64,000 bases of DNA, from assembly GCA_035221665.1 (NCBI GenBank), contig JAVHYY010000238.1, positions 1 through 64,000 on the forward strand. Reading direction: 5' to 3'. Shown here piece by piece: positions 14,149 to 59,699 of the stretch (the stretch's first letter is position 1; each line of letters starts with the position of its first letter). The notes under the pieces are model-generated. The model saw nothing but the letters and a program-made list of their open reading frames with translations. It made no database searches and was not told the origin of the DNA. This DNA comes from Okamejei kenojei. Its lineage: Eukaryota. The translations under genes were made by a program, and so were the position numbers.

Positions 14149-16017
14149 CCTGAATGTATCCAACTGTAAATCCTTGGTGTTGTACCATGAATGAGCTTCC
14201 AATTACACAGAGTGTAATTCTCTGTTTTAATTGCTCAAGCTAAATTAAAACATGGCCTCAATATCTTATGGACAAGTAGTGAAAATTGCCATGAAATTTC
14301 CCATTGCTCTGGCAGGAAGTAAAATTATATTTCATTGCCTAGCCAACGTCTTACCTAGTTTGAGTCAAGGTTTTAGCCGAGTGTCTCAGCTATTATCAAA
14401 AGCTTGCATCCACTTAGAAATTGTAAGTAGAGGTGATCTTCGTCTGTCTCTAACAACCATGGACCTGATATTGAAAAACTTCTGAAACTGCATCAGCCAC
14501 AAAGATCTCACTGAATAAATACAGTAAAAAAGCTAATATATATTTGTTTTTATTTTGCCAAAGGATTTTATTTTTTTGGAAGTACAAAAGGAATCATTTT
14601 TTAAAGGTTATTCATTTTCTGGGTGTCCATGGAAGTTTTTTGTCATGCAGCTATATCAGAAAATTAATGTATGATTTATAAATGGTCGTTTTATTGAACC
14701 CACAAAATATTTTTGATGTTTGTGGAATAGATAAAAGAGAATATATGTGCAATTAATAGACACTGATATTTTTATGGAAGGTATTATAATTATTGAAGTA
14801 ACCTTTTTTTTCTGCTAATAATGTTGGGGGGGGCACAGAAAAATTAAAAGATCCCAAGGGGGCCATAAGTTAAAAAAGGTTGGGAACCACTGTCCTAACT
14901 GATACAATAGGTAATGGCACAATATGTACTAGCATGTATGGAATTCCTATTTTCATTTGTGAAATGTTCCTGAACACTCCAGAGCAAACGGCGTCATCTC
15001 GCCTCACGCCAACACCGAGTCTCGGCGGCGTGTGGCCAACCTTCAGCCGTGGCGAGAACAAGCGGCAAAGAGGAACCATGACTGAAACCGGAGCAGTGAA
15101 CGCCGCGTCCCGGCCCGCCGTTTCCTTGGAGACAATAACACGCTAAGATACTCAAGCAAATTTATATTCTAACTGATACAATTGGTAGTGGCACAATATT
15201 GAATAGCATGTTTGGCACTTCTATTTTAATTTGTGAATTGTTCACAAAACTATAAATCACACATAAGGCCACACAGTGTAGGCTAAAAAGAAATGTGTAC
15301 TTGTAAGTAGGAACATCCATTTAAAACTTCCTCAAGCATAATTTTAGACAATATTTAACTTATTTAATGAAACTTCAAAAATCAACCCCATGATTTTCTT
15401 TTGGTAGACTGAGGTTTCGTTTTTGGTAGATGTGTATCACATCTATGTTAAATGATCATTAGCGTATAAATGCTGATTTATTTACATTTATATGCTAAAT
15501 TCATTTCTCTAGTATCTTTGATTCTCAGTCCCACACCCCTACTTCCGCCTCTGACCGACACCTCCCTCCTCCAATGATCACACTTAATTATCATGTCCCG
15601 CCCCCATTGCCTGCTGACCGACGTCACTCTCGCCTAATCGGCGTCCTCGATCATCAGTCCCACCCCCACTGTCTCGCGGAAAGTGGAGATTTCATCTGGT
15701 TTTAAAATCCGGATATAAAAAATGAAGGGGAACGTCCCTCATCCCTCAAAACGGGGGGTGGGTGGGGCGGAGAGAGGGGAAAAATGGGGGGAGAAGGGGG
15801 TGCAAGAACGGGGGAGAAGGGTGGGGGGAGGGAGAAAGGGGGAGACACTTTTAAGAAGCCAAACAACTTTAAATGTCAGAGATACAGAGCTGTGAAGTTT
15901 TACCGGCCGATTTTCCTTGGTTCTGAAAAGGGGGGGGGGGATATTGCGGGGGGAGAAGATTAGGGGGAGGGGAGAAAGGGGGGGGAACATTTTTTGAGAC
16001 TACTCTTCTTCAGACCT

Positions 16018-16585
16018 GAAACATCGCCTATCCACATTGACCAGAAATGGTGTCTGACCCACTGAGTTACTCCAGCATTGTGAAACATCACCTATCCACG
16101 TTCTCCACAGATACTGCCTGACCAATTGTTACTCCAGCACTCTGTGAAACATCACTTGTCCATGTTCTCTACAGATACTGCATGACCCGCTGAGTTACTC
16201 CAGCACCCTGTGAAACATCAATTATCCATGTTCTCCACAGATGCTGCCTGACCCACTGAGTTACTCCACCGCCCGGTAAAACATCACTTATCCATGTTCT
16301 CCACAGATGCTGCCAGACCCGCTGAGTTACTCCAGCCCCCCGTGAACCATCAATTATCCATGTTCTCCACAGATGCTGCCTGACCCGCTGAGTTACTCCA
16401 GCACTCTGTGAAACATCACCTATCCACGTTCTCCACAGATACTGCCTGACCAACTGTTACTCCAGCACTCTGTGAAACATCACTTATCCATGTTCTCCAC
16501 AGACGCTGCCTGACCCACTGAGTTACTCCACCACCCGATAAAACATCACTTATCCACGGGTTCTCCACAGATGCTGCCTCCAGCA
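16018..16585 (+). repeat. ~65-bp tandem array (~9 units) derived from the Penelope pLTR
   Basis: Unit GAAACATCACCTATCCATGTTCTCCACAGATGCTGCCTGACCCGCTGAGTTACTCCAGCACTCTGT. Confidence 0.9.
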
Positions 16586-17860: not shown

Positions 17861-17881
17861 CACTTGCATTAAACATTATAC

Positions 17882-18085
17882 CAGTGACTCCAACTCTCCC
17901 GCTTTCGGCGGGAGATCGCCCGCTGAAAGGGCATTTTCGGAAAATCTCCCGCTCTCCCGCTTGCGATATAATTTCACCCCGCCCGGGCAGGTGAAATTAT
18001 ACGCAAGCGGGAGAGCGGGAGATTTTCCGAAAATGCCCTTTCAGCGGGCGATCTCCCGCCGAAAGCGGGAGAGTTGGAGTCACTG
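17882..18085. mobile_element. 204-bp palindromic MITE with 6-bp TSD
   Basis: CAGTGACTCCAACTCTCCCGC...GCGGGAGAGTTGGAGTCACTG with ~95-bp near-perfect arms; TTATAC at 17876-17881 and 18086-18091. Confidence 0.9.
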
Positions 18086-18899
18086 TTATACCCAATATTA
18101 CACTGTGGATGGCTCGATTGTAGGTCCCCTACACCTCTCCCTGTCTCACACTCTGTAACAGGCCAAAAGTTTATATCACCAGAGGTAAGCAATGTTCATC
18201 ATTGAAGGCTAAAATGGCTTCAAATAGTGAAGATTGGTGAAGAATAGTCTGAAACAAAATGTAACATTGTTTGCGATCAAAAAAGTATGTTGTGCACAGT
18301 GTGTATAATAATTGCCCTTTTTCTTCTGCAACATTAGTGACGGCTGCATTAGAAAAAGGTGGCAGTGTTCACTAGGAATTGACCACAATTTAATCAATGG
18401 ATCTTATTTTGTACAGCTAATCCATTATTTGTCAGTCATACCTTGCAGTACGAATCTTCAGTCTCTTCATAAAGGCAAGAGTGGGCATGTTGCTATTGAA
18501 ACTCCTTAGAGGAAAGACCCTTGTAGGAAAGGAAACATTTCCTAATCCAATCAAATCCATTAAACAAATAAAATGAACAAACGATATTGCCAAGTGCAGG
18601 AACTATCTTTGAAGTAGTGGGGAGGTGTCCAACTGCCCTACGGCTACAGATATGCATGGAGACAAGTATAATTTCTTATCATTTCTGGAGATGGTTGGCA
18701 TTTTCTTTCATTATTGATATACAACATGAATTCTGAAGAATTCCAAAGAACACAGTGAGGTCAGGAAAAACTGGGAAGATGTTGATTGTCTGATCCTCGA
18801 CAGGGCCAAGGAGGGCTTATGTTAGGAAGACTTCTCCATCCGTTTCTCACCATGGATTGCTGACCTGCTGTATCTACCGGCATTTTTGGAGGGGAATGA

Positions 18900-19190: not shown

Positions 19191-19789
19191 TATGAACCCT
19201 TTTTTGGACTGATGGAGTCGGGGGAGAAAGCTGTACAAAAGAGATGGTGTTGTGACAGGCTCCGGGACTTGATTAGGAGGAGCGGGGGGGGAGGGGGCGG
19301 GGGGGAAGTGTCTCCTTAATTTGGAGAATTTAATGCTCATGTCATTGGGCTTTAAGCAATGAGGTGCTGTTCTTCCAGTTTGCGTGTCACCTAACTCTGG
19401 CAATGGAGGGCCCAGGACAGAAAGATCAGTGTGGGAGTGGGAAGGGGTTAAAATGGTTGGCAACCGGGAGATCCAGCAGGCCTTGGCAGACCGAGCGCAA
19501 ATGTCGGTGAAATGCTGGAGTAACTCAGCGGGACAGGTAGCATCTCTAGAGAGAAGGAAATTGTGATGTTTCAGGTTGAGACCCTTATTCAGCATCTGTG
19601 GAGAACATGTATCGGTGACATTTTGGGTCGGGACCCTTCTTCAGATTGACACTGTTAACAGATGAGGGGGTGATCAGCAGGTGAGTGAAGTGACAGAGGC
19701 GAGAGAAAATAAAGAGATAAAAGGGTGTGAGATAAGGAGAGAGAAATGTATATGTGCAGCTTTAAGGGGAAGTTGGCAGGCGGCCTCAG

Positions 19790-22220: not shown

Positions 22221-22900
22221 GAATCCTGAGGCAGAGAATTCCACAGATTTACAACTCTCTGTGTGAAAAAGTTTTTCTTCATCTCAGTCCCAAATGGCCT
22301 AACCCTTATTCTTAAACTGTGACTCCTGGTTGTGGATTCCACCAACATCAGGGCCATGTTTTCTGCATCTTCCCTGTCCAATCCTTTAATAATTTTATAT
22401 GTTTCTACAAGATCCCCTCTCTAAATTCCAGCAAATACAAGCCCAGTCGACCCATTTTTTCATTATATGTCAGTCCCGCCATCCCGGGAATTAACCTGTT
22501 TAAGAAAGACCTGCAGATGCTGGAAAATTCGAAGGTAGACAAAAATGCTGGAGAAACTCAGCTGGTGAGGCAGCATCTATGAAGCGAAGGAATTCCTTTG
22601 TTCCATAGATGCTGCCTCACCTGCTGAGTTTCTCCAGCATTTTTGTCTACCTGCGGCAATTAACCCTGGTGAACCTACGCTGCACTCCCTCAATAAATAG
22701 AATGTCCTTCCTCAAATTAAGAGACCAAAATTGCACAAAATACTCCAGGTGTGGTCTCACCAGGAACCTGTACAACTGCAGTAGGATCTCCTTGCTCCTA
22801 AACTCAAATCCTCTCGCAATGAAGGCCAACATGCCATTAGCTTTCTTTACTGCCAGCTGTACCTGCATGTATACTTTCAGTGACTGTTGTACAGGGGCAC
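22220..22900 (-). mobile_element. CR1 3' fragment containing a palindromic pLTR-derived insert (~22497-22657)
   Basis: AVKKANGMLAFIARGFEFRS..VRPHLEY on the minus strand. The insert has inverted arms AGGTAGACAAAAATGCTGGAGAAACTCAGC and is flanked by AATTAACC. Confidence 0.8.
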
Positions 22901-22985
22901 CCACCTCCCATTCTCCTAAGGGTTACATAAAAAGCTGGAGAAACTCAGCGGGTGCAGCAGCATCTAAGAGGCGAAGGAGATAGGC

Positions 22986-23013
22986 GACGTTTCGGGTCGA
23001 GACCCTTCTTCAG
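22986..23013 (-). ncRNA. Minimal hammerhead ribozyme motif
   Basis: Reverse complement reads CTGAAGA-A-GGGTC-TC-GACCC-GAAACGTC: intact CUGANGA and GAAA cores with a GUC triplet. Confidence 0.7.
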
Positions 23014-23144
23014 ACTGGTCAGGGATCAGGGAAACGGGAGATATAGACAGTGATGTGGAGAGATAAAGAACAATGAATGAAAGATATGCAAAAAAGTATC
23101 GATGATACTCTCCCCATTCCCCCACTCGCAAACAGGGCAGAGAC

Positions 23145-23756
23145 CCCCTGGTCCTCACCTTTCACCCCATCAGCCGGCAAATACAACAGATAGTCCTCCG
23201 CCAGTTTCGCCACCTCCAACGTGACACCTCCACCCGCCACATCTTCCCATCTCCCCCCCTGTCTGCCTTCCGCAAAGACCGCTCCCTCCGCAACTCCCTT
23301 GTCAATTCTTCCCTCCCCTCCCGCTCTACCCCTTCCCCGGGCACTTTCCCTTGCAACCGCAAGAAATGCAACACTTGTCCCTTCACCTCCCCCCTCCACT
23401 CCTTTCAGGGACCCAAGCAGTCCTTCCAGGTCCGACAGAGGTTCACCTGCACCTCCTCCAACCTCATCTACTGCATCCGCTGCTCCAGATGCCAGATGAT
23501 CTATATCGGTGAGACCAAGCGGAGGCTTGGCGATCGTTTCGCCGAACACCTCCGCGCGGTCCACAAAAACCAACCCGACCTCCCGGTGGCTCAGCACTTC
23601 AACTCCCCCTCCCATTCCGTATCCGACCTCTCGGTCCTGGGCCTCCTCCACGGCCAGAGTGAGCAACACCGCAAGTTGGAGGAACAGCACCTCATATTCC
23701 GCTTGGGGAGTCTGCATCCTTTGGGCTTGAACATTGAATGTTCTCAATTCTGTTAG
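23145..23756 (+). CDS. Penelope-like ORF C-terminus: Cys-rich linker and GIY-YIG endonuclease (5'-truncated, no start codon)
   Basis: Open frame PLVLTFHP..FPCNRKKCNTC..RFTCTSSNLIYCIRCSRCQMIYIGETKRRLGDRFAEH..VAQHFN..EEQHLIFRLGSLHPLGLN. Confidence 0.85.
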   Translation, partial: PLVLTFHPISRQIQQIVLRQFRHLQRDTSTRHIFPSPPLSAFRKDRSLRNSLVNSSLPSRSTPSPGTFPCNRKKCNTCPFTSPLHSFQGPKQSFQVRQRFTCTSSNLIYCIRCSRCQMIYIGETKRRLGDRFAEHLRAVHKNQPDLPVAQHFNSPSHSVSDLSVLGLLHGQSEQHRKLEEQHLIFRLGSLHPLGLNIECSQFC

Positions 23757-23992
23757 CCCTTGCTGTCTCCTCCCCCTCCCACCTCTCCCTCAGCCCTCGG
23801 GCCCTGGCATTCCCTCTATCTCTATCTCCCTCCCCCACCCTAGTCGCACTAGCTTCTCATTTTCACACCACAAACAGCTTACAATGGCTTGTTCCCTTTA
23901 TCATAGATACTTTTTTGCATATCTTTCATTCATTGTTCTTTATCTCTCCACATCACTGTCTATATCTCCCGTTTCCCTGATCCCTGACCTGT

Positions 23993-24020
23993 CTGAAGAA
24001 GGGTCTCGACCCGAAACGTC
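23993..24020 (+). ncRNA. Minimal hammerhead ribozyme motif
   Basis: CTGAAGAAGGGTCTCGACCCGAAACGTC. Confidence 0.7.
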
Positions 24021-24754
24021 GCCTATCTCCTTCGCCTCTTAGATGCTGCTGCACCCACTGAGTTTCTCCAGCTTTTTGTGTAACCCTCGATTCTCCAGCA
24101 TCTGCAGTTTCTTCGTTAACACTCCCATTCTCCTAATATTGGCTCATTACCGCTCCGTGTACCGAGATACAGGTGTCAGGGGTTATGGGGAGAAGGGAGG
24201 CAAATGGAGTTAGGAGGAAGAGATAGATCAGCCATGATTGAATGGCGGAGTGGACTTGATGGGCCAAATGGCCTTATTCTGCTGCTATCACTTTTGACCT
24301 TATACAGGTAGAAACCTTGTCTCCGCACTTGAGTCACACAGGTCTTACACTCAACATTATTCTCTTCATCCCGTGTCCGTACACTGTGGACGCGTCGATT
24401 GTAATCACGTGTTGCCTTTCTGACGACTGGTTAGCAGCAACAACAAAGCTTTTCCCTGAACCTCGGTACACGTGACAATAACCTAAACCCTGCCGCCGCC
24501 AATGTTGTCCTCAGATCAGTTTCCAGCCCAACAGAAAGTGCCCGGGATCGGCACGAAATGGTGCCAATCAGAAGCGGGGAAAGTGGAGACGAGATACAAG
24601 GATGGATGCAAACTCCAGAATAATCCAGGTACGAACGGTCTCCTTATAAAGGGAGAGCTGGCAGACATGCCCAGTACTTGCTCCCATGGCGCGGAGCTCC
24701 CTCTGTGTGGCCCTGTGAACGATGCCCTCGAGTGTCTGAATCCACTGCAGCTGC

Positions 24755-25385
24755 ATCAATTCAGTGGGACAGGCAGCATCTCTGGACCCACTATGGATCA
24801 ACTCAGTGGGACAGGCAGCGTCTCTGGACCCACTATGCAGCTGCATCAACTCAGTGGGACAGGCAGCGTCTCTGGAGAGAAGGAACGGGTGACGATTCGG
24901 GTCAAGACCCTTTTTCCCCCACTGGTTAGAGATAAGGGAAACGAGAGATATAGACAATGAGGTGGACATAAAGAACAATTAATGAAAGACATGCAAAAAA
25001 GTTACGATCATAAAGGAAACAGGCCATTGTTAGCTGTTTGTTGGGTGAAAACGAGAAGCTGGTGCGACTTGGGTGGGGGAGGGATAGAGAGAGAGGGAAT
25101 GCCGGGGCTACCTGACGTTAGTGAAATCAATATTCATACCACTGGGCTGGAAGCTGCCCAAGCAAAATATGAGATGCTGTTCCTCCAAGTTGCGTTTATC
25201 CTCACTCTGTCAATGGAGACTAGGCCAGAAAGGCCAGTGTGGGAATGGGAGGGGGAATTAAAGTATTTAGCAACCGGGAGATCAGGTAGGTTCAGGCGGA
25301 CTGAGCGAAGGTTTTCAGTGATCAACGATCGCCCCGTCTACGTTTGGTCTCGTCTTAAAACCAGCATCTGCAGTTCCTTCCTACT
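24755..25385 (-). mobile_element. Penelope-like fragment with triplicated pLTR end
   Basis: DLPVAKYFNSPSHSH remnant; ATCAA(C/T)TCAGTGGGACAGGCAGC occurs three times at 24755-24875. Confidence 0.75.
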
Positions 25386-26650: not shown

Positions 26651-27474
26651 GTACAGTCCTGCATTAATGTTAGATCCACTTGGGACTATTGATTTCATCA
26701 GATCATCTCTCCCCTCCTTCAAGAGGGGAAATTACTGTAATTGGATGAATGATGATTTTATTTTGCTGAAAATTACTATGATCAATTTTAGCAAATACAG
26801 TACATTCCATAATAGTTTTTTTCACCAGAAAATCATTTTTGCCTTTGCTAACAATTAAAAAGATATTTTAACAGAAGTATGGCTGGACTTGGTTTATTTC
26901 GTCTTTTTTTTTTAATTCTGTGACAATTCAAAGTTGTTTTAATTAGTTACTAATCCTGTTGTGTTATTAACATTGACTTGATTTCAGGGTGACAAAGTCG
27001 ACTTTTATTAAGTCGGTTATATTATTGAAGCCTTCAATTGGCCGTTGGGTTAAAGGCCCGTCGTCCTCAATATTCATATTATTTCTGAAAAATGTTGCCT
27101 TGTGATCTGAGGGGAAAGTGTGAGGCCATTTAGTTTTGTTTCTCCACATACAGTAGGTATGGAAACAAAGTTAAGAACATTTAAACTTCTGCTTTTTTTT
27201 ATAGATTGTTTCGTATTTGAACACAAGTTCTCGTTACCATCAAGAGCTCAATATTCCTGAGTTCCTCCCCCACTGGCTATTCTTTTCCTTGGATGGTCAC
27301 AGTTTAACTTTAGAGATTGTTTTAAATTACTTCATTTGATAATTCATTAAATTACTTCATTTGATAATTTCACAGCCCACCCACCGGCACCGATACTCTC
27401 CTCCGTCCACCACCGCTGCAGACATCTTACCGTTCTAGCTGTTAAATGGGCCGAATGGTTCTTTCTCTTCACTG

Positions 27475-27736
27475 GAGTACACAAAGGGCTGGAGAAACTC
27501 AGCGGGTGCAGCAGCATCTAAGGAGCGAAGGAGATACGCGACGTTTCGGGTCGAGACCCTTTTTCAGCCCAGTCTGAAGAAGGGTCTTGACCCGAAACGT
27601 CGCCCCAGTCTGAAGAAGGGTCTCGACCCGAAACGTTGCCTATCTCCTTTGCTCCTTAGATGCTGCTGCACCCGCTGAGTTTCTCCAGCCTTTTGTGTAC
27701 CCTCGATTCTCCAGCATCTGCAGTTCCTTCTTTAAC
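27475..27736. mobile_element. Non-coding palindromic Penelope derivative with three hammerhead motifs; 15-bp TSD
   Basis: TSD TCTTTCTCTTCACTG at 27460-27474 and 27737-27751; motifs at 27540-27567 (minus, core mutated), 27574-27601 (+) and 27610-27637 (+). Confidence 0.9.
27574..27637 (+). ncRNA. Tandem pair of minimal hammerhead motifs (36-bp spacing)
   Basis: CTGAAGAAGGGTCTTGACCCGAAACGTC followed by CTGAAGAAGGGTCTCGACCCGAAACGTT. Confidence 0.65.
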
Positions 27737-27857
27737 TCTTTCTCTTCACTGTCTGTTTAGGTGCTTTCATGTATATTCCACATCTATTCTACTGTCTGCT
27801 TCTCAGTAAATAAGAGGCCACAAAGGTCCAGTTACAATTCTCGGACTACACTAACTC

Positions 27858-28152
27858 GTTTAGTTTAGTTTAGAGATCCAGCGTGGATCTGTAAACTACC
27901 GGCCCACCGAGTCCGCACCAACCAGCGATCCCCGCTCACTAACACTATCCGACACACACAGCAGGGACAATTCACACGTATACCAAGTAAATTAACCTAC
28001 AAACCTGTACATCTTCAGAGTGTGGGAGGAAAGTGAATATCTCTGAGAAAACCCACGCGGTCACGGGGAGAACGTACAAACAGCAACCGTAGTCGGGATC
28101 GAACCCGAGTCTCTGGCGCTGCAACCACTGTAAGGCGGCAACTCTACCGCTG
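27858..28152 (-). mobile_element. V-SINE (HE1-like)
   Basis: A and B boxes, V-domain-like TTTGTACGTTCTCCCCGTGACC, (CTAAA)n tail. Confidence 0.8.
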
Positions 28153-29677
28153 GTCTGATTATTCTTTCACACACACTGTTGAACCAACTTGGACCATCAT
28201 GCCCGTTCCACTGCAAGCTGTGAAATTATCAAATGAAGTAATTTAATGAATTATCAAATGAAGTAATTTAAAACAATCTCTAAAGTTAAACTGTGACCAT
28301 CCAAGGAAAAGAATAGCCAGTGGGGGAGGAACTCAGGAATATTGAGCTCTTGATGGTAACGAGAACTTGTGTTCAAATACGAAACAATCTATAAAAAAAA
28401 GCAGAAGTTTAAATGTTCTTAACTTTGTTTCCATACCTACTGTATGTGGAGAAACAAAACTAAATGGCCTCACACTTTCCCCTCAGATCACAAGGCAACA
28501 TTTTTTCAGAAATAATATGAATATTGAGGACAACGGGCCTTAAACCCAACGGCCAATTGAAGGCTTCAATAATATAACCGACTTAATAAAAGTCGACTTT
28601 GTCACCCTGAAATCAAGTCAATGTTAATAACACAACAGGATTAGTAACTAATTAAAACAACTTTGAATTGTCACAGAATTTAAAAAAAAAGACGAAATAA
28701 ACCAAGTCCAGCCATACTTCTGTTAAAATATCTTTTTAATTGTTAGCAAAGGCAAAAATGATTTTCTGGTGAAAAAAACTATTATGGAATGTACTGTATT
28801 TGCTAAAATTGATCATAGTAATTTTCAGCAAAATAAAATCATCATTCATCCAATTACAGTAATTGGTCGCCTCATGGGAGACGCTCTGGGGGATCCGGGA
28901 TCGACTGCGGGAAGCAGATGAAACAGATGCTGCCCAGCTCTGCACGCACAGACTGTGAACAAACTGCCCTCGGCTTCCCGTTCAGTCTGCAGGGAGTCGG
29001 TATTTATTGCACGGACACTTTCTTTTCGGTATTACATGTAATCAATTAATTGATCATTTCCTTTAACCCAATGGGCAATTCAAGGCGCCAGGCATTGGGC
29101 AGAGAGCGAGGAGTCGGAAACACAGCATCACGAGTTTCCTGGCTTGGGGCATGAAACTCAATACTCAGCGCAAAATACAAATGAACCTTTTATATTCATC
29201 CAATATTATTGTTGATATTTTCCCATCTAACCTACCACAGGAATACCTGGGAGAGTCTAGTACTAGAGGTCATAGCCTCAGAATTAAAGGACGTTCTTTT
29301 ATCGCCTATCCATGTCCTCCACAGATGCTGCCAGACCCGCTGCGTTACTCCAGCGCTCTGTGTTTTTATTTGCAATCCAGCATCTGTAGTTCCTTGTGTC
29401 TTCCCTCCATTTCCTGACACTGCTCTCCCCCTCCCTCCCGCCCACATTCACCGGGGTCCCATACACACACACACACACACTCGTCGCCCACCGCAGGAAC
29501 CTCACGGTGGCCGGAGGAGCAAGGGACCACGTTGCAAGCGCATCGGACACAGACTCGGGGAAACAGCTTGCATGAGCCACGTGTATTGATGCAATGCTGC
29601 AGAGTGCGAAATAATATAAAATGAAATAATATAAAGGAAATTATAACACTGTAAATTGGTGACCTTTCTCTGTGTTA

Positions 29678-30044
<367 letters not shown>

Positions 30045-30650: not shown

Positions 30651-30891
30651 ACCCAAATCCATAACGTTCCATTTGGAGAAGTGGGTTTTTTTTTGAGGAA
30701 GCCGTTGATTGGCGGAAGAGGACCCGAGGAAGCAGCTGATTGGGTGCAACCCCGGGTTTACAATTTTACATTTCTGCCTTCTGGGAGTGAGGGATTCTGG
30801 GAGTTAAGGATTCAGTATTTAGTAGTAAAGTTTAAAGGATAAGTTTTTGTGTTTTTTTAATATTTAATACAGTGTAATTTGGGAGTAAGGT

Positions 30892-31839
30892 ATGGCAGTA
30901 GAGATTGGCCCCGTGGTTTGTTCAGCCTGCAACATGTGGGAGATCAGGGAGATGGTCGGTGTCCCTGGTGACTACATTTGCAGGAAGTGTGTCCAGCTGC
31001 AGCTCCTGGCAGACCGCATTGAACGATTGGAACTGCGGCTGGATTCATACTGGAGCATCCACGATGCGGAGAAAGTCGTGGATAGCACGTACAGTGAGTT
31101 GGTCACACCGCAGGCAAAAGGTAAGAGGACAGAAAGGGATCGGGTGGCCAATAGCCAGCAAAGCAGCAGGCAGGGAGTGCAGGAGTCCCCTGCGGTCATC
31201 TCCCTCCTAAACAGGTATACCATTTTGGATACTGTTGAGGGAGATGGCTCATCAGGGGAATGCAGCAGCAGCCAGGTTCATGGCACCATGGGTGGCTCTG
31301 CAGCACATGAGGGGGGAAAAAAGAGGGGAAGGGCAATAGTAATAGGGGATTCAATTGTCAGGGGAATAGATAGGCGTTTCTGCGGCCGCAAACGAGACTC
31401 CAGGATGGTATGTTGCCTCCCTGGTGCAAAGGTCAGGGATGTCACTGAACGGCTGCAGAACATTCTGGAGGGGGAGGGTGAACAGCCAGTTGTCGTGGTG
31501 CATGTTGGCACCAACGATATAGGTAAAAAAAGGGATGAGGTCCTACAAGGTGAATTTAGGGAGCTAGGAGATAAACTTAAAAGTAGGACCTCAAAGGTAG
31601 TAATCTCCGGATTACTACCAGTACCACGGGCCAGTCAGAGTAGAAATAGGAGGATAATGCAAATGAATACGTGGCTTGAAAAGTGGTGCAAGGGGAAGGG
31701 ATTCAAATTTTTAGGGCACTGGGACCAGTTCTGGGGGAGGTGGGACCGGTACAAACAGGACGGTTTGCACCTGGAATGGAATGGAACCAATGTTCTTGGG
31801 GGAGTGTTTGCTAGTGCTGTCGGGGAGGATTTAAACTAA
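30892..31839 (+). CDS. CR1 ORF1p: zinc finger/leucine zipper plus SGNH esterase-like domain
   Basis: Intact 315 aa; CSAC..CRKC, heptad Leu, IGDS, HVGTND, DGLH. Confidence 0.93.
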   Translation: MAVEIGPVVCSACNMWEIREMVGVPGDYICRKCVQLQLLADRIERLELRLDSYWSIHDAEKVVDSTYSELVTPQAKGKRTERDRVANSQQSSRQGVQESPAVISLLNRYTILDTVEGDGSSGECSSSQVHGTMGGSAAHEGGKKRGRAIVIGDSIVRGIDRRFCGRKRDSRMVCCLPGAKVRDVTERLQNILEGEGEQPVVVVHVGTNDIGKKRDEVLQGEFRELGDKLKSRTSKVVISGLLPVPRASQSRNRRIMQMNTWLEKWCKGKGFKFLGHWDQFWGRWDRYKQDGLHLEWNGTNVLGGVFASAVGEDLN

Positions 31840-34815
31840 TGTGGCAGGGGAATGGGTACAAGAGCAGAGAGGCAGGAGGGTGTAAAATGAGGGTAGAAGC
31901 ATTAGGTAGCAAGGTGAAAAGTAAAAGTGGCAGGCAGACAAAACCAGGGCAAAAATCAAAAAGGGCCACTTTTCAGCAAAATTGTATAAGGGGTAAGTGC
32001 GTTGTAAAGACAAGCCTGAAGGCTTTGTGTCTCAATGCAAGGAGTATTCGTAATAAGGTGGACGAGTTGAACGTGCAGATAGATATTAATGATTATGATA
32101 TAGTTGGGATCACGGAGACATGGCTCCAGGGTGAAGTAGGCTGGGAGCTGAACATCCAGGGATATTCAATATTCAGGAGGGATAGAGAGAAAGGAAAAGG
32201 AGGTGGGGTAGCGTTGCTGGTTAGAGAGGAGATTAACGCAATGGAAAGGAAGGACATTAGCTTGGAGGATGTGGAATCGGTATGGGTAGAGCTACAAAAC
32301 ACTAAGGGGCAGAAAACGCTGGTGGGTGTCGTGTACAGGCCACCTAACAGTAGCAGAGAAGTTGGGGATGGTATCATACAGGAAATTAGAAATGCGTGCG
32401 ACAAAGGCAAAACAGTTATAATGGGTGACTTCAATCTACATATAGATTGGGTTAATCAAATTGGCAGGGGTGCTGAGGAAGAGAATTTTTTGGAATGTAT
32501 GCGGGATAGTTATCTAAATCAACATGTAGAGGAACCAACGAGAGAGCAGGCTATTTTAGACTGGGTTTTGAGTAATGAGGAAGGGGTAATTAGCCGTCTT
32601 GTTGTACGTGCCCCCTTGGGCAAGAGTGACCATAATATGGTTGAGTTCTTCATTAGGATGGAGAGTGACATTGTTAATTCAGAAACAATGGTTCTGAACT
32701 TAAAGAAAGGTAACTTTGAGGGTATGAGACGTGAATTGGCCAAGATTGACTGGCAATTAATTCTAAAAGGGTTGACGGTGGATATACAATGGAAGACATT
32801 TAAAGACTGCATGGATGAACTACAAAAATTGTTCATCCGTTTGGCAAAAGAATAAATCGGGGAAGGTAGTGCATCCGTGGATAACAAGGGAAATCAGGGA
32901 TAGTATCAAAGCAAAGGATGATGCGTACAAAGTACCCAGAAAAAGCAGCATACCAGAGGACTGGGAGAAATTCAGAGACCAGCAGAGGAGGACAAAGGGC
33001 TTAATTAGGAAAGGAAAAATAGATTATGAAAGAAAACTGGCAGGGAACATAAAAACTGACTGCAAAAGTTTTTATAGATATGTGAAGAGAAAGAGGTGAG
33101 TTAAAACAAATGTAGGTCCCTTGCAGTCAGAAACAGGTGAGTTGATCATGGGGAACAAGGATATGGCGGACCAATTGAATAACTACTTTGGTTCCGTCTT
33201 CACTAAGGAAGACATAAATAATCTGCCTGAAATAGCAGGGGACTGTGGGTCAAAGGAGGAATTGAGTGAAATCCAAGTCAGTCGGGAAGTGGTGTTGGGT
33301 AAATTGAATAGATTAAAGGCCGATAAATCCCCAGGGCCAGATAGGCTGCATCCCAGAGTACTTAAGGAAGTAGCTCAGGAAATAGTGGATGCATTAGTGA
33401 TAATCTTTCAAAACTCTTTAGATTCTGGAGTAGTTCCTGAGGATTGGCGGGTAGCAAATGTAACCCCTCTTTTTAAGAAGGGAGGGAGAGAGAAAACGGG
33501 GAATTATAGACCAGTTAGTCTAACATCGGTAGTGGGGAAACTGCTAGAGTCAGTTATTAAAGATGGGATAGCAGCACATTTGGAAAGTGGTGGAATCATT
33601 GGACAAAGTCAGCATGGATTTACGAAAGGTAAATCATGTCTGACGAATCTTGTGGAATTTTTCGAGGATGTAACTAGTAGCGTGGATAAGGGAGAACCAG
33701 TGGATGTGGTATATCTGGACTTCCAGAAGGCTTTCGACAAGGTCCCACATAAGAGATTAGTATACAAACTTAAAGCATACGGTATTAGGGGTTCAGTATT
33801 GATGTGGATAGAGAACTGGCTGGCAAACAGGAAGCAAAGAGTAGGAGTAAACGGGTCCTTTTCACAATGGCAGGCAGTAACTAGTGGGGTACCGCAGGGC
33901 TCAGTGCTGGGACCCCAGCTATTTACAATATATATTAATGATCTGGATGAGGGAATTGAAGGCAATATCTCCAAGTTTGCAGATGACACCAAGCTGGGGG
34001 GCAGTGTTAGCTGTGAGGAGGATGCTAGGAGACTGCAAGGTGACTTGGATAGGCTGGGTGAGTGGGCAAATGTTTGGCAGATGCAGTATAATGTGGATAA
34101 ATGTGAGGTTATCCACTTTGGTGGCAAAAACAGGAAAGCAGACTATTATTTAAATGGTGGCCGATTAGGAAAAGGGGAGATGCAGCGAGACCTGGGTGTC
34201 ATGGTACACCAGTCATTGAAAGTAGGCATGCAGGTGCAGCAGGCAGTGAAAAAAGCGAATGGTATGTTAGCTTTCATAGCAAAAGGATTTGAGTACAGGA
34301 GCAGGGAGGTTCTACTTCAGTTGTACAGGGTCTTGGTGAGACCACACCTGGAGTATTGCGTACAGTTTTGGTCTCCAAATCTGAGGAAGGACATTATTGC
34401 CATAGAGGGAGTGCAGAGAAGGTTCACCAGACTGATTCCTGGGATGTCAGGACTGTCTTATGAAGAAAGACTGGATAGACTCGGTTTATACTCTCTGGAA
34501 TTTAGGAGATTGAGAGGGGATCTTATAGAAACTTACAAAATTCTTAAGGGGTTGGACAGGCTAGATGCAGGAAGATTGTTCCCGATGTTGGGGAAGTCCA
34601 GGACAAGGGGTCACAGCTTAAGGATAAGGGGGAAATCCTTTAGGACCGAGATGAGAAAGACTTTTTTCACACAGAGAGTGGTGAGTCTCTGGAACTCTCT
34701 GCCACAGAGGGTAGTTGAGGCCAGTTCATTGGCTATATTTAAGAGTGAGTTGGATGTGGCCCTTGTGGCTAAGGGGATCAGGGGGTATGGAGAGAAGGCA
34801 GGTACGGGATACTGA
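31839..34815 (+). pseudogene. CR1 ORF2 (APE endonuclease + reverse transcriptase) with two lesions
   Basis: NARS, ITETW, GGGV, YRPP, GDFN, SDH; YRPVSLTS, DFQKAFD, GVPQGSVLGP, KFADD. Frameshift near 32838 and TGA at 33097-33099. Confidence 0.93.
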
Positions 34816-47036: not shown

Positions 47037-49710
47037 TGCTCCTCCTTGTAGACATTGAAATCAATGCAAAGTAGTATCTTCGTCATCTTAAAAAAAACAT
47101 TATTTTACAATTGTTGATCCTTTGGTGAGGGAGACAAGGCAAGGGAATACATTATAGCTGAAAGGATACTGAACCATGGTGGGGAACAGAAAGATCTTGG
47201 CAAACGTTGTGTAGGAAGGAAATGCAGATGATGGCTTACACTGAAGATAGACACAAAATGCTGGAGTTACTCAGCGGACCAGAGATCCTGTCAATCCCGA
47301 TGAGTTACTCCAGCATTTTGTGTCTATCTTTGGAGAGCTTGTTGATGAATCTTTGAAGGTAGTGGGACAGTCATCTTGGAACTGTGGAAAACGTTAGCTC
47401 AGCCATACCTGTAACATTGTGTGGATTCTGGTTGCCTCCCTACGGGATTGATGGGAGTGCACTAGCGAGGCACAAGAAAGGTTTACAACATTGGCAGGAC
47501 TGCAGAAGAAAGGTTGCAAGGAGAGAGTCACCAGGAACTGCAGCAGGTAGATTGTTTGAGTGGTTATAATATTATAGAAAAAAAAACAAAATGCTGGAGT
47601 AACTCAGTAGGACAGGCAGCATCTCTGGAGAGAAGGAATGGATCATGTTTCGCATTGAGACCCTTCTTCAGACATCTCGACCCGAAACGTCATCTATTCC
47701 CCCCACCCCTCCCCCCCACCCCTCCCCCCCCCACCCCCCCCCCCCCCCCCCCCCGAGATGCTGCCTGTCTCGCTGATGTCTACCTGCGGTGTAATCTGCA
47801 GTTCCTTCCTACACATAAGGTTATGATATTCTGACTGGTCCATTCGGAGTAAACAAGGTAACCATTTTTCCTACACAAAGTTGGAAATGTAATTCAATTG
47901 GCACAAGGGTTTGATGCAATTAGTACAGTGGGCCAAGGGTTCACTGCCTGAATGGTTGTTGGAAGCAGAACTCGCATTTACTGGGCACCTGGACCAGCAG
48001 TAGAAGAGGCTGTGAGCGAGATTCACCTGGCCTCCCAGCACGTAAAACAGAAGGTGGGAACTATCGGTCAATTGACAGATACATAGATAGAACAGGTTTC
48101 GTGGGATATGGACCAAACGCAGGCAGGTGGGACCAGTGTAGATGGGACATGTTGGCGTGTGAGGGCGAGTTGGGCCGAAGGGTCTGTTTCCACACTGTAT
48201 CACTCTATGATTCAAATTCATCCAGCACTCATAGTTCGCAAGAGGAAATAACTAATCATTTGGTAAGCTGCATCTAATCAAATGTAGCCAACATGGTTTA
48301 TTGAAAATCATGTGCGACAAAACTTGACAGGATGTGATAGGGAGTTGATAAGGGAAACCTGTAAATGTAGTAGGAAGGAACTGCAAATACTGGTTTAAAC
48401 AAAGATAGACACAATAAGCTGGAGTAACTTAGCGGCTCAGATAGAAAAGGACTTTTCTATTTGTTTTCTCCAGAGAAGCTGTCTGACCCGCTGAGTTACT
48501 CCAGCTTTTAGTGTCTATCTGTAAATGTAGTTAGCATTTAGATCTCCAAAAGGCATTTGCCACATATGAGGCTGCTGCAAAAAAATGAAGAGCCTATGAT
48601 ATTGGAGGAAGTGTGTTAACATGGACTGAAAGGTGGCAGTCATACAGAAAAAAAAGTTAGAATAAATTCGTGAAAACTGCAGATGGAATAAATCTGAAAA
48701 ACAAAATGCTGGGTGCACTCGTGTCAGGCTGCATCTGTAGCCAGAGAAACAGAATGCATGTTTCAAGTTAAAGACCCTTTGTCAGAATTGGGGAGGCGAC
48801 AAAAGAAACTTGTAAAGCTGCACAGGTGGGTGGATGGCTCTGATAGTGTAAAACCAGGTGACCATGGAGATAAGCTGCACACAAAGTTATCTGGTCAAGG
48901 AGTGAATAGGAACGGTTAGGTGATAAGAAAAATAGACAAAAGATCGTAGCAGTTGCAAAATGCAGAGCAAGAAGACACGTCTAGGAAGGAATGGCAGATG
49001 CTGGTTTAAACCGAAGATAGACAACGGGACAGGCTGCATCTCTGGAGAAAAGGAATGGGTGACGTTTCTGGTGGAGACGCTTTTCAGACAAGACATGTCT
49101 GGCAGGTCAGCATGGATATGCCCTCCACTTTTGGATAGAGATTTTAAAAAACAAGCCAACCCAATTATCACAAATGGACAACTGATACTAACAGGGGAAT
49201 CAAGTTACCCAAGATGATCAAATTCAGTTTGAGCCCAGAGGACTGGCATGAGCCCAAATGGAAGGTGAGATGCCATTCCTCAAGATTGCTTTGAGCCTCA
49301 TTGCAACAGTGCAAGAAGTCACAGACTGTTTGGTCATTCCCACATCCAAGAGTCTGAATGAGATAGCAGGATGCTCAGCAGTGCCCCATGGGTCGAACAC
49401 AGGTGCTCCGCAAAGTAGAAGCCCAACGTCTGTTTGGTTTCTCCAATGTAGAGGAGACCACGTCATGAACACAGGAAAAGGAGCAGAGGGGAAAAAGGAG
49501 AGATAGTGAGAGAAAGTGAAGAACACAGTACAGAGGGAGGGGGTGAGTGGGAGTTGAGTGTTAAAGAAGGGGAGGGAAGAGGGCAAGATACTTTCCACAC
49601 TTTCCTCTTCACATCAATCTCTTTGTTCATCTCCGGGCAGAAGAAGTGCTAAGTTTTGACCTTTTACAGTTAAATAAAAAACTATTTGGGAAAACTGACA
49701 TCAGTCATAC

Positions 49711-53131: not shown

Positions 53132-54185
53132 TAGCAATGTTACAAAATTTTGAGATTTAAAAAATCAAGTCTGCAATTTATCCCATCAGATAAAGCATAA
53201 AAATAAGTTTAATTTGACACTTAATTCACTTTCATATTTTCAGTATTAAAAAAAAATATGGCCATTTTCATACTCGGAAATTAGCATCTTGTTCCCAATT
53301 GCTTTTCCATTGACTTAACTCAAAAGTAATGATCGAGGACAGTCAAAAGCCCATAACTTTCTTAAAAATTAAGAGAACTGAAAGACATTTTCAGTTATTA
53401 TAGATTGAAGCAAATATGAAACAATCTTACTTGAATGACCTGAAATTAAAGCATTGTAATCAGTTAGTTACCCAATTGTAGCTAATTACAAAATTCAATT
53501 ACTAGATCTAAACATCTATCCATTTCTTAAGAAAATATTAACATTTTTTTAAAAGCCTAAGTGTCCAAATAACATTCACACAAGAATTCACAATATAACA
53601 TGATTTTAAAATCTCATTGTTATTTATTCATAGGCCAAATTGAAAGAATTTAGTGTTTAATGCCCGTAAATTAATGGCCATTTAAATCAGCTTGCGAGTG
53701 GGATTTTATGGAACGCGATGGATTGGAACGTTGCGGTTGCGGTGAATTTAAACCCCATATCGGCAGGAAAAATACTGCTGGTTCGTATAGGGGAATAAAT
53801 CACCGTTTCGCAACATGAAATGTTGATTAAGGTCATCCAAACAAGCAAGTTTATATGTAAAAATAAACTGATTTCCTTTACCTGTCCCCTACATAAAATC
53901 CGTCCCCATTGTCAGCGTTCACGGCATTAGAAGCTAATTTTTATTTTACTCCAGCGCTGAAGTAGTCGGACGATTAAAAAAAAAAAAAATTCACAGACCA
54001 ACAGACGGAACGAATCTTCAGAAAAAGCTCACACTCCGAGAAAATACAATTCCGGAAGGCATTGGAAAACCGCATTTTAACCTCGCCCCCCCCCCCCCCC
54101 CCCCCCCCTCAAAGGCACCAAAGTCGCGCACACGGCCAGTGACAGAACTGCAGAGCTGCTGTAGGTAAGTTTTATAACATATCTA
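53132..54185 (+). mobile_element. Non-autonomous hAT-like DNA transposon, copy A
   Basis: Imperfect TIRs TAGCAATGTTACAAAA / TTTTATAACATATCTA; TTCTATG duplicated at 53125-53131 and 54186-54192. Superfamily tentative. Confidence 0.75.
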
Positions 54186-55094: not shown

Positions 55095-55420
55095 TGTAGG
55101 AAGGAACTGCAGATGCTGGTTTACACCAAAGATGGACACAAAATGCTGGATAAACTCAGCGGGACAGGCAGCAACGCTGGAGCAAAGGAAAGGGTGACGT
55201 TTCCTGTCGAGATTCTTCTTCAGACTGATGTCAGGGGATTGGGAGATATCCTTATCTATACACTTATAGATGTCCTTGTCTTTACACTCCCTTATCTATG
55301 TACCTCCCACTCCCCTGATATCTGTCTGAAGAAGCATCTAGACCAGAAACGTCACCCATTCCTTCTCTTCAGAGATGCTGCCTGTCCTGTTGAGTTACTC
55401 CAGCATTTTGTGTCTATCTA
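55095..55420. mobile_element. Inverted pLTR pair (Penelope derivative)
   Basis: GACACAAAATGCTGGA..CTTCTTCAGAC and GTCTGAAGAAG..TCCAGCATTTTGTGTC arms. Confidence 0.75.
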
Positions 55421-57360: not shown

Positions 57361-58729
57361 CTGCATTAATTGTAAGCAAACAGAAAGACAGTGTGAGGGG
57401 CAGCCCTGCACTGGGCACTGGCACCTTGCCGGCTGGCCCAGAGAGGGAGGGGGCGGGGAGACACACTGCTGCCATCCTTCTCACCCTCCCTGCACATGGC
57501 AGGGCACATGGTATAGGGGGTAGAGTGCAGACGTGGATTAAAAATTGGTTGGCAGATAGGAAACAAAGAATAGGGATTAACGAACGGGTCCCTTTCAGAA
57601 TGGCCAGTCCACCACTGCACTTAAACAGAGGGTGACTCAGGAAGGAAGTTGAAATAAATGAAATCAGACAACTTGAAGAGAATAAAAAAACTTAACCATC
57701 ATTAGTAGAAACAAGGAACTGCAGATGCTGGTTTCTACCAAAGCGCTGGAGTAACTCAGGTCAGGAAGCATCTCTGCAGCAAAAGGTTGGGTAACGTTTC
57801 AGGTCAGGATCATTCTGCGAGCCATCATTCATTGATTTCAAATCAGGTGGGAGTAAAGCAAAACAAATTGCAGATTCTGGAAATCTGGCAAATCCAAAAC
57901 TGTGAAATAACTATTTGCCTGAGATGCTGTCCACACCATTGCGTTTGGTCTATATCCCTCCAAACTTTTCCCATCCATGTAGGTATGTTACAAAACTTAA
58001 CTTTAGCGGCGCTGCAGTTCTGTCACTGGCCATGTGCGCGCCTTTGAGGGGGGGGGGGTGGGGGGGGGGTTAAAATGCGGTTTTCCCCTGCCTTCCGGAA
58101 TTATATTTTCGCGGAGTGCAAGCTTTTTCTGAAGATTCGTTCCGACTGCCGGTATGTGAATTTTTTTTTTTTTAAATCGTCCGACTATTTCAGCGCTGCA
58201 GCAAAATAAAAATTAGCTTCTAATTCCGTGAATGCCGACAACGGGACAGATTTTACGTAGGGGACAGGTAAAGGAAATCCGTTTATTTTGATAGATAAAC
58301 TTGCTTGTTAAGATGACCTTAATCCAAATTTCATGTTGCGAAACGGTGATTTATTCCCCATACGAACCGGCAGTATTTTTCCTGCCGATATGGGGTTTAA
58401 ATTCACCGCAACCGCAACGTTCCAATCCATCGCGTTCCATAAAATCCCACACGCAAGCCGATTTAAATGGCCATTAATTTACGGGCATTAAACACTAAAT
58501 TCCTTCAATTTGGCCTATAAATTAATGACAATGAGATTTAAAAATCATGTTATATTGTGAATTCTTGTGTGAATGTTATTTGGTCACAGGCTTTTTAAAT
58601 TTTTTAAATATTTTCTTAAGAAATGGATAGATGTTTAGATCTAGTAATTGAATTTTGTAATTAGCTACAATTGGGTAACTAACTAATTATATGCTTTAAT
58701 TTCAGGTCATCCAAGTAAGATTGTTTCAT

Positions 58730-58827
58730 CTGGTCTGAAGAAGGGTCTCGACCCGAAACGTCGCCTATCTCCTTCGCTCCTTAGATGCTGCTGCATCCGC
58801 TGAGTTTCTCCAGCCTTTTGTGTACCA
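58730..58827 (+). mobile_element. 98-bp solo hammerhead-bearing Penelope unit with 13-bp TSD
   Basis: AAGATTGTTTCAT at 58717-58729 and 58828-58840; single copy at the homologous site in copy A (~53416-53428). Confidence 0.9.
58735..58762 (+). ncRNA. Minimal hammerhead ribozyme motif
   Basis: GGT-CTGAAGA-A-GGGTC-TC-GACCC-GAAACGTC-GCC; 3-bp stem I. Confidence 0.72.
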
Positions 58828-58907
58828 AAGATTGTTTCATATTTGTTTCAGAATGCTTCAATCTATAAAATTTCTTTCAGTTCTCTTAATTTTTAAGAAA
58901 GTTATGG

Positions 58908-59690
58908 GGGCGAGTGTGAGGGGGGGGGGGGGGGTGAGCGTGGGGGGGGGGGGGGTGAGTGTGAGGGGGGTGAGTGTGAGGGGGGGTGAGTGTGTGTGTG
59001 GGGGGATGTGTAGGAGGGGTGAGGGTGGAGTGTGTGTGGGGGGATGTGTAGTGGGGAGAAGGTGAGGGGGGTGAGGGTGAGGGGGGGGTGAGGGTGAGGG
59101 GTGTGAGTATGTGTGGGGGATGTGTAGGGGAGAGGGTGAGGGGGGGTGAGTGTGTGGGGGGTGAGTGTGAGGGGTGTGTGTGTGTGGGGGGGGCGTGTAG
59201 GGGGGGAGAGGGTGAGGAGTGTGAGGAGGGGGTGTGGGGGAGAGGGTGAGGGGGGGTGAGTGTGTGGGGGTGAGTGTGTGGGGGGTGAGTGTGAGGGTTG
59301 TGTGTGTGTGTGTGTGTATGTGGGGGGACGTGTAGGGGGGGAGAGGGTGAGGGAGTGTGAGGAGGGGTGTGGGAGAGGGTGAGGGGGGGTGAGTGTGTGG
59401 GGGTGGGTGTGTGGGGGGGATGTGTAGGGGGGGAGAGGGTGAGTGTGGGGGGGAGAGGGGGGGGAGAGGGTAGGCGAGGGGGAGGGGGGGGGGAGGGGAT
59501 GGTGCTGAGGGGAGGGGGAGAGAGTGAGGGGGGTGTGCGTGTGCGTGTGGGGGGACGTGTAGGGGGGGGGGGAGAGGGGTGAGGGGGTGTGAGTGCATGT
59601 GGGGGGATGTGAAGGGTGGTGAGGGTGGAGTGCATGTGGGGGGATGTGTAGGGGGGGGGGCGAGGTGAGGGGGTATATATGTGAGGGGGG
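58908..59690. repeat. G-rich low-complexity tract (GGGGTGAG/GTGT)
   Basis: Seen directly. Confidence 0.9.
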
Positions 59691-59699
59691 TAATTCTGC

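What the first reader, a model, noticed from the sequence alone, without database searches (positions are those of the whole stretch)
27460..27751. Non-coding palindromic element with three hammerhead motifs, two in tandem
Seen: a 262-bp insert with a 15-bp TSD made only of inverted pLTR arms. It holds one minus-strand motif (core G>A) and two plus-strand motifs 36 bp apart. Established: minimal hammerheads with a palindromic stem III (here ACGT) are thought to work as dimers. Inference: the tandem duplication could supply the dimer in cis, though the 8-nt linker may be too short and the enclosing hairpin could sequester the motifs.
Basis: partly seen in the sequence, partly recalled or inferred. 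Interest (0 to 1): 0.72.

Follow-up and report, generated by a model that had tools for sequence, protein, structure and literature searches.

The report
Truncated Penelope insertion with duplicated hammerhead
This is an ordinary, decaying stump of a Penelope-like retrotransposon whose small ribozyme motif happened to be copied twice side by side, and the surrounding hairpin would almost certainly keep the two copies from working together.

Summary
In detail: a 262-bp insert (27475-27736) with a 15-bp TSD, a minus-strand hammerhead with G8A, and two plus-strand motifs 36 bp apart. It is the terminal repeat (pLTR) of a young Neptune/Nematis-type Penelope-like element in a cartilaginous-fish genome, with the published insertion layout: head-to-head inverted copies and a 34-nt tail on one side. 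A sibling with the GIY-YIG end lies 3.5 kb away, and other pLTR-only palindromes and pLTR tandems, with and without hammerheads, occur in the window. A cis double hammerhead can be drawn (the 8-nt linker becomes a 2-bp stem I), but in the whole insert it lies about 55 kcal/mol above the 91-bp hairpin ensemble, against 16 without the left arm. Six private changes (three CpG>TpG, two in catalytic cores) look like neutral decay. The 36-bp duplication starts within 1 nt of the inversion joint, so it probably arose at integration or by repair there. Public contigs appear to hold the empty site; the tandem joint could not be confirmed or counted genome-wide. This scan already noted similar palindromic stumps in two other genomes. 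Verdict: ordinary.

The parts
27460..27474 (+). Left copy of the 15-bp target site duplication
27475..27567 (-). Inverted, tail-less pLTR copy (positions +1 to about +92 counted from hammerhead C3)
27540..27567 (-). Minimal hammerhead motif 3; G8>A at 27562 breaks the C3-G8 core pair
27568..27603 (+). Extra 36-bp unit (pLTR -4 to +30/31) that starts at the inversion joint; holds motif 1 (C3 27574, GUC, C17 27601; loop II C>T)
27602..27609 (+). 8-nt linker; would form a 2-bp stem I with a 4-nt loop in a cis double hammerhead
27604..27702 (+). Direct pLTR copy, 5'-truncated at -4; holds motif 2 (C3 27610, GUU triplet, H17 27637)
27703..27736 (+). 34-nt PLE 'tail', on this arm only; family contigs in public runs run out into unrelated flanks at 27702 and 27736
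   Evidence: table 7
27737..27751 (+). Right copy of the target site duplication
22920..24121 (+). Sibling insertion of the same young subfamily: inverted pLTR, 3' ORF fragment with CX4CxxC linker and GIY-YIG, pLTR with tail, 15-bp TSD; it identifies the parent element
58730..58827 (+). Sibling solo pLTR stump, single intact motif, no tail, 13-bp TSD

Best explanation
A dead-on-arrival insertion of an endonuclease-bearing Penelope-like retrotransposon (Neptune/Nematis type). Shown: the parts, their pLTR origin, head-to-head geometry, a one-sided tail, the TSD. Inferred mechanism: the RT-GIY-YIG protein cut the target with a 15-nt stagger and both ends primed cDNA on pLTR RNA, one from each of the two start sites 34 nt apart. 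Both cDNAs stopped at the 5' edge of the hammerhead and were joined head to head. During joining, a template jump added one more 36-nt piece (+31 back to -4). The tandem is a by-product. If transcribed, either strand folds into a 91-bp hairpin that buries the motifs, so the likely RNA product is a dsRNA hairpin and not an active ribozyme. Together with the first rival, 'ordinary non-functional by-product' has about 0.87.
For: Right arm 92% identical over 133 nt to the 3' end of a copy with a GIY-YIG ORF fragment. Inverted 5'-truncated copy plus a 30-40 bp one-sided tail is the described PLE layout (PMC8557442; PMC3846280). The tail equals the stretch between two RT start sites, and both target strands are cut and extended, in a lizard PLE (PMC11167929). 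Family contigs end at 27702 and 27736 (73 and 127 in X1, 77 and 145 in X5). The duplication boundary lies within 1 nt of the inversion joint. The two units share no private change and each has one CpG>TpG; overall 6 private changes in 211 positions, 2 in 36 core positions. Hairpin versus cis dimer: 54.9 kcal/mol. Other pLTR-only palindromes with different centres at 22497, 47251, 47586, 48374 and 55100.
Against: No microhomology at the unit joint beyond 1 nt, so a template jump is not positively shown. The two-primer model is carried over from a Poseidon-clade element tested in vitro. Mutation counts are too small to exclude weak selection. No genome was held, so recurrence of the tandem was not counted. 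The tandem joint was not seen in the rows displayed (15 of 883 joints, 32 of 271,729 pieces), which neither confirms nor refutes it.
Confidence: 0.58

Rival explanations
1. Same dead PLE stump, but the 36-bp duplication arose after insertion, by slippage or repair of a nick at the tip of the near-perfect DNA palindrome; the longer spacer (6 to 42 nt) would also make the palindrome more stable. Equally non-functional.
For: Short local duplications are common here: 44 TRF rows over 1-59000, among them a 25-bp duplication 200 bp away and pLTR arrays without a hammerhead core at 16017-16579 (66 bp x8.6) and 24746-24876 (42 bp x2.9). A second, decayed two-motif tandem (52 bp apart, joined at a shared CTG) lies at 19592/19644. 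Fragility of palindrome centres is recalled knowledge, not tested.
Against: The units share no private change and carry about the same load as the arms (1 in 31 against 3 in 90 and 2 in 90), so any later duplication came soon after insertion.
Confidence: 0.29
2. The tandem is a working cis double hammerhead, in effect a 36-nt-unit retrozyme seed that cuts at 27601 and 27637 and releases a 36-nt RNA.
For: Both plus motifs keep CUGANGA, GAAA, a 4-bp stem II and ACGU; the cis dimer is nested, with a 4-bp stem III and two 2-bp stems I. GUU is an allowed triplet (PMC3138052 passages). The 14-16 kcal/mol gap of the isolated tandem is no worse than that of a trans dimer of intact siblings (13.4 and 18.8), so the energy model does not exclude the isolated tandem. 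A PLE hammerhead is protein-assisted in vitro.
Against: It needs a transcript that starts after about 27567. With the left arm the gap is 52-55 kcal/mol, and folding snapshots show motif 1 paired from the moment it is made. Dimer and trimer constructs of minimal HHRs cleaved only weakly (PMC4209133), and 1 of 9 natural Xenopus dimers cleaved (bioRxiv 10.64898/2026.07.22.740005). Core changes are not depleted.
Confidence: 0.05
3. The whole palindrome, tandem included, is a mobile non-autonomous family (copied as a unit, or carried along with the repeated host sequence).
For: The target lies in a sequence that looks multi-copy: flank contigs at depth 526 in X5 and 125 in X1, where listed contigs of about 1 kb have 25 and 10. 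The site is in the spacer of a 657-bp, 98.8% inverted repeat.
Against: Those high-depth contigs stop matching at the TSD and appear to be the empty site. The palindromes in the window have different centres. Only 2 same-strand close pairs among 17 motifs, with different spacing.
Confidence: 0.04
4. The 36-bp duplication is an assembly error at a hairpin.
For: None of the four runs shows the window's letters at 27811 and 27831, no listed piece spans the insert, and the joint was not among the displayed rows.
Against: The units differ at 2 of 36 positions, each a distinct CpG>TpG change, which a duplicated-read error would not give.
Confidence: 0.04

Closest known systems
EN+ Penelope-like element insertions with inverted pLTR and tail (PMC3846280; PMC8557442), Neptune/Nematis type
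   Same: Head-to-head inverted, 5'-truncated pLTR copy; 30-40 bp tail at one end; TSD; sibling ORF with CX2-5CxxC linker before GIY-YIG.
   Different: Truncated so far that only pLTR remains; an extra 36-bp pLTR piece sits at the inversion joint. TSD is 15 bp against 8-10 bp in the rotifer examples read.
Minimal type I hammerheads (min-HHR) of metazoan PLEs (PMC4209133)
   Same: Conserved core, one extra nucleotide between 9 and 10.1, G10.1-C11.1, no loop III, palindromic 15.2-16.2; opposite-strand pairs close together were already reported.
   Different: Stem II 4 bp (5 with a 2-nt loop) against 7-8 bp in Schistosoma; stem I only 2 bp; two copies only 36 nt apart; one copy G8A, one C17U.
Non-LTR retrozymes (PMC7229834; bioRxiv 10.64898/2026.07.22.740005)
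   Same: pLTR-derived tandem with a hammerhead in each unit; the preprint proposes exactly this birth by local tandem amplification of a pLTR.
   Different: Unit 36 bp against 150-450 bp or 51-972 bp; two copies only; minimal and not canonical HHR; enclosed by an antisense arm; no evidence of spread or RNA.

Membership tests
EN+ Penelope-like element insertion | pLTR homologous to the 3' end of an RT/GIY-YIG ORF element | tested here: met
   92% over 133 nt to 23988-24121; ORF fragment hits Pfam GIY-YIG at E 7e-4, 20.2 bits, below the 22.6 cut-off, and is 47% identical to the C-terminus of a 902-aa RT+GIY-YIG protein
EN+ Penelope-like element insertion | Inverted 5'-truncated copy at the 5' end, head to head | tested here: met
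   feature from PMC8557442 and PMC3846280
EN+ Penelope-like element insertion | 30-40 bp tail at one end | tested here: met
   34 nt, 27703-27736; family 3' ends at 27702 and 27736
EN+ Penelope-like element insertion | Target site duplication | tested here: met
Neptune/Nematis clades | CX2-5CxxC linker before GIY-YIG | tested here: met
   CX4CxxC in the sibling ORF; definition
Neptune/Nematis clades | RT phylogeny that separates Neptune from Nematis | not tested
   the window copy lacks the RT
Minimal PLE hammerhead | Core C3UGANG8A9, GAAA, NUH | tested here: met
   met for motifs 1 and 2; not met for motif 3 (G8A)
Minimal PLE hammerhead | Extra nucleotide before 10.1, G10.1-C11.1 pair, palindromic 15.2-16.2 | tested here: met
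   features
Minimal PLE hammerhead | Self-cleavage as a dimer | not testable with these tools
   folding energies only
Non-LTR retrozyme | At least two consecutive tandem units with a complete HHR | tested here: met
   TRF 36 bp x2.0, both cores intact; the preprint's -5 kcal/mol filter was not applied to the two units
Non-LTR retrozyme | Unit length within described families (150-450 bp; 51-972 bp) | tested here: not met
   36 bp; ranges
Non-LTR retrozyme | Canonical type I HHR with 6-bp helix I and loop 1-loop 2 contact | tested here: not met
   stem I 2 bp, no loop III; definition
Non-LTR retrozyme | Dispersed family of the same unit | tested here: inconclusive
   one occurrence in the window; no genome held; read tables cut
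Non-LTR retrozyme | Expressed as linear and circular RNA | not testable with these tools
   no RNA run was laid

The most novel reading that the evidence does not exclude
A transcript that starts at the inversion joint folds the two motifs into a natural cis double hammerhead of about 70 nt, with the linker as stem I, and cuts out a 36-nt RNA. It would be shorter than any retrozyme unit in the papers read and a snapshot of a retrozyme being born at a PLE inversion joint; such junction-anchored duplications would then recur genome-wide. Detectable in vitro cleavage of the isolated tandem is more likely (about 0.25) than any role in the animal.
Probability: 0.05. Interest if true: 0.55.

Novelty: new member of a known kind. 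Interest (0 to 1): 0.15.

Why it matters
Little, as it stands. Inverted pLTR stumps with minimal hammerheads are the normal debris of Penelope-like elements, and cis dimers have already been assayed with other constructs. Two modest uses: it shows both PLE 3' ends (with and without tail) in one 262-bp insertion, which fits in vitro work on two RT start sites; and 27569-27645 is a ready-made, very short natural construct for asking how close two minimal hammerheads can be and still cleave in cis. A 36-bp hammerhead tandem was not found in the literature searches made, which cover only open-licence PMC and bioRxiv.

Tried and rejected
No whole genome is held, so the tandem could not be counted genome-wide. 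Rfam: 0 hits at gathering score; 8 weak matches to E=10, miRNA-hairpin and other unrelated models, none a hammerhead. Collection scans: the exact 31-nt motif gave 0 in metagenome contigs; a degenerate 25-nt motif gave 0 in viral contigs and 6 in metagenome contigs, which match only the first 25-38 nt and come from other families, so all 6 were dropped. Sequencing runs: no RNA holder listed. 4 of 23 listed runs were laid; family contigs swamp the insert and the tables are cut, so presence or absence of the tandem joint cannot be read. In X5 and X6 no contig beyond the apparent empty-site one covers 27756-27779, and X1 has an extra 9.8 of depth at 27769 that may or may not be the filled allele; a hole proves nothing. 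Loose ends before 27570 were rejected as evidence for a truncation hot-spot, because any normal copy with its 3' UTR would give them. The 14-16 kcal/mol gap of the isolated tandem was rejected as evidence against it, because intact siblings in trans show 13-19. The Lunse/Weinberg/Breaker paper on PLE hammerhead dimers could not be read (title and a review's summary only). One search returned only shark-ecology papers and one look-up an unrelated review. Look-ups of earlier findings by sequence and place were blank. Supplements were not opened; the dimer/trimer gels of PMC4209133 and the family tables of the bioRxiv preprint (closed) could hold shorter units or fish motifs that bear on novelty.

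Full report
Observation. The insert runs from 27475 to 27736 (262 bp) between two exact copies of a 15-mer (27460-27474, 27737-27751) that occurs nowhere else in the window. Arms 27477-27567 and 27610-27700 are 95% complementary over 91 nt; the RNA fold has z = -23.3. A 36-bp unit is present twice at 27568-27640. Three hammerhead-like motifs have C3 at 27567 (-), 27574 (+) and 27610 (+); a fuzzy search finds 17 such motifs in the window and none in 3 shuffles. The minus motif has G8>A. Motif 2 has C17>U, motif 1 a loop II C>T. Rfam finds no hammerhead here, so the label rests on the published description of minimal PLE hammerheads (PMC4209133, parts 1-2 of 4 read): extra nucleotide before 10.1, G10.1-C11.1, palindromic 15.2-16.2, all present.

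What it is. The right arm is 92% identical over 133 nt to the 3' end of an insertion at 22920-24121, which has its own 15-bp TSD and inverted pLTR. Its ORF fragment has a CX4CxxC linker followed by GIY-YIG (the Pfam score is just under the cut-off) and is 47% identical to the C-terminus of a 902-aa RT+GIY-YIG protein. The four best of 15 homologues are named from sharks and rays, so the host is probably a cartilaginous fish. The linker marks Neptune and Nematis (PMC8557442, passages); I did not separate the two. An inverted 5'-truncated copy and a one-sided 30-40 bp tail are described as typical PLE features (PMC8557442; PMC3846280, passages). Here the tail is 27703-27736; family contigs run out into unrelated flanks at exactly 27702 and 27736 (73 and 127 in X1, 77 and 145 in X5, table 7). 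In a lizard PLE the tail is the stretch between two RT start sites and both target strands are cut and extended (PMC11167929, parts 1-2 of 4). The insert is therefore read as two cDNAs joined head to head; that step is inference.

It is not unusual in its window. pLTR-only palindromes with other centres lie at 22497-22655, 47251-47323, 47586-47697, 48374-48514 (13-bp TSD, no hammerhead core) and 55100-55419; a convincing TSD was found for only some of them. pLTR tandems occur with hammerheads (19592/19644, 52 bp apart, decayed) and without (66 bp x8.6 at 16017-16579; 42 bp x2.9 at 24746-24876). Two of this scan's earlier notes describe similar stumps in other genomes; they are unchecked notes and not evidence.

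Public runs. Four of 23 listed runs were laid on 27300-28000. In X5 a 250-nt contig at depth 526.3 matches 27737-27928 and has 58 further letters; depth at 27429 is also 526.3 and the mean of 27444-27467 is 350.8, equal to 526.3 x 16/24. I infer that it joins 27459 to 27737, the empty site with one TSD copy; the joint row itself is not among the 15 of 883 shown. X1 and X6 have contigs that also begin to match at 27737. These depths are far above those of the roughly 1-kb contigs listed for the same runs (25 and 10), so the target seems to be a repeated sequence that is mostly empty; the tool warns that depth is no copy number. None of the four runs shows the window's letters at 27811 and 27831, so none is demonstrably the source. 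The tandem joint could be neither confirmed nor counted.

Could the tandem work in cis? The structure can be drawn without a pseudoknot: ACGU of motif 1 pairs with ACGU of motif 2, the 8-nt linker folds into a 2-bp stem I with a 4-nt loop for one core, and the flanks give a 2-bp stem I for the other. Linker length is therefore not the obstacle. In the isolated tandem this fold lies 14-16 kcal/mol above the best alternative, in which the near-palindromic stems II cross-pair. That number does not count against it, because a trans dimer of intact siblings shows 13.4 and 18.8 in the same model, which lacks tertiary contacts. What does count is the left arm. It pairs with either motif at -57 kcal/mol, raises the gap to 52-55 kcal/mol, and captures motif 1 as soon as it is transcribed. 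The minus strand folds into an equally long hairpin (-186.6), and its only sense motif is the G8A one; G8 changes abolish cleavage in the lizard element (G8C). Published activity is low even without an antisense arm: weak cleavage of dimer and trimer constructs and 1 of 9 natural Xenopus dimers (bioRxiv 10.64898/2026.07.22.740005, parts 1-3 of 5).

Decay and origin of the duplication. Against three young siblings the insert has 6 private changes in 211 positions: 3 CpG>TpG, 3 in the 84 motif positions, 2 in 36 core positions where 1.0 is expected. The numbers are small but show no protection of the cores. The two units share no private change, so the duplication is about as old as the insertion. 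Its left boundary lies within 1 nt of the inversion joint, about a 1% coincidence for a random start among 262 positions (my arithmetic). Its right boundary is 2-3 nt past the cleavage site, so it is not a cleavage product, and microhomology is 1 nt. A template jump during joining (0.58) and early repair at the palindrome tip (0.29) both fit, and both make the tandem a by-product.

Comparison and verdict. It is a member of EN+ PLE insertions and carries minimal PLE hammerheads. It meets the formal two-unit rule for a non-LTR retrozyme but fails on unit length and hammerhead type (PMC7229834, passages) and is not filed there. I found no report of a 36-bp hammerhead tandem in searches (listings seen; open-licence papers only), and could not read the Lunse et al. 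paper. PMC6765202 and PMC6466107 were seen as passages. New member of a known kind; interest 0.15. The boldest reading left open is a natural 36-nt-unit cis double hammerhead on a transcript that starts at the joint (0.05).

Noticed in passing
window 26720-27376 and 28217-28876: A 657-bp, AT-rich, non-coding inverted repeat at 98.8% identity with an 840-bp spacer that holds the insert. The arm-spacer joint is present in X1 and X5 contigs at depth 43 and 71, while X6 and X8 have contigs in which the sequence from 27373 is joined to other DNA. Origin unexplained (long-TIR element or local inverted duplication).
   Followed up: partly
window about 53350-54185 and 57980-58910: A second long inverted repeat (about 90%). 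The young PLE stump at 58730-58827 sits in one arm only, so the other arm is its empty site. The two inverted repeats share only a 17-nt match.
   Followed up: partly
window 16017-16579: Minisatellite of 66-bp pLTR units (x8.6) that starts at GAAAC and lacks CUGANGA; it is preceded by an 11-nt inverted remnant of the motif start and followed by a tail.
   Followed up: partly
window 19510-19648 (-): Older tandem of two decayed hammerhead motifs 52 bp apart, joined through a shared CTG.
   Followed up: partly
window 29798-30038 (-): C2H2 zinc-finger array with an in-frame stop, 2 kb upstream on the minus strand; read-through from it would transcribe the tandem in antisense.
   Followed up: no
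window 23014-23030 (-): Pyrimidine-rich stretch ending in CAG just before the motif resembles a 3' splice site; the Drosophila Penelope intron ends at helix I. Untested.
   Followed up: no
window 17877-18090: Near-perfect non-pLTR palindrome, 89-nt arms 99% complementary with a palindromic centre.
   Followed up: no
window 30889-34815: LINE with ORF1-like, endonuclease and RT frames in pieces; the CR1-like label is recalled.
   Followed up: no
window 58900-64000: G-rich simple repeat and a 20-25-bp satellite with strong strand skew.
   Followed up: no
table 5c: An X1 joint from the tail end (27732) to the motif start (27606) at depth 128 may mark tail-to-head pLTR tandems of about 127 bp elsewhere in the genome, a better retrozyme-like candidate than this locus; strand not shown.
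   Followed up: no
L002, L005, L006 and L001, L003, L004: Metagenome contigs carry a related motif start with other stem III sequences, probably from eukaryotic DNA in the samples.
   Followed up: no
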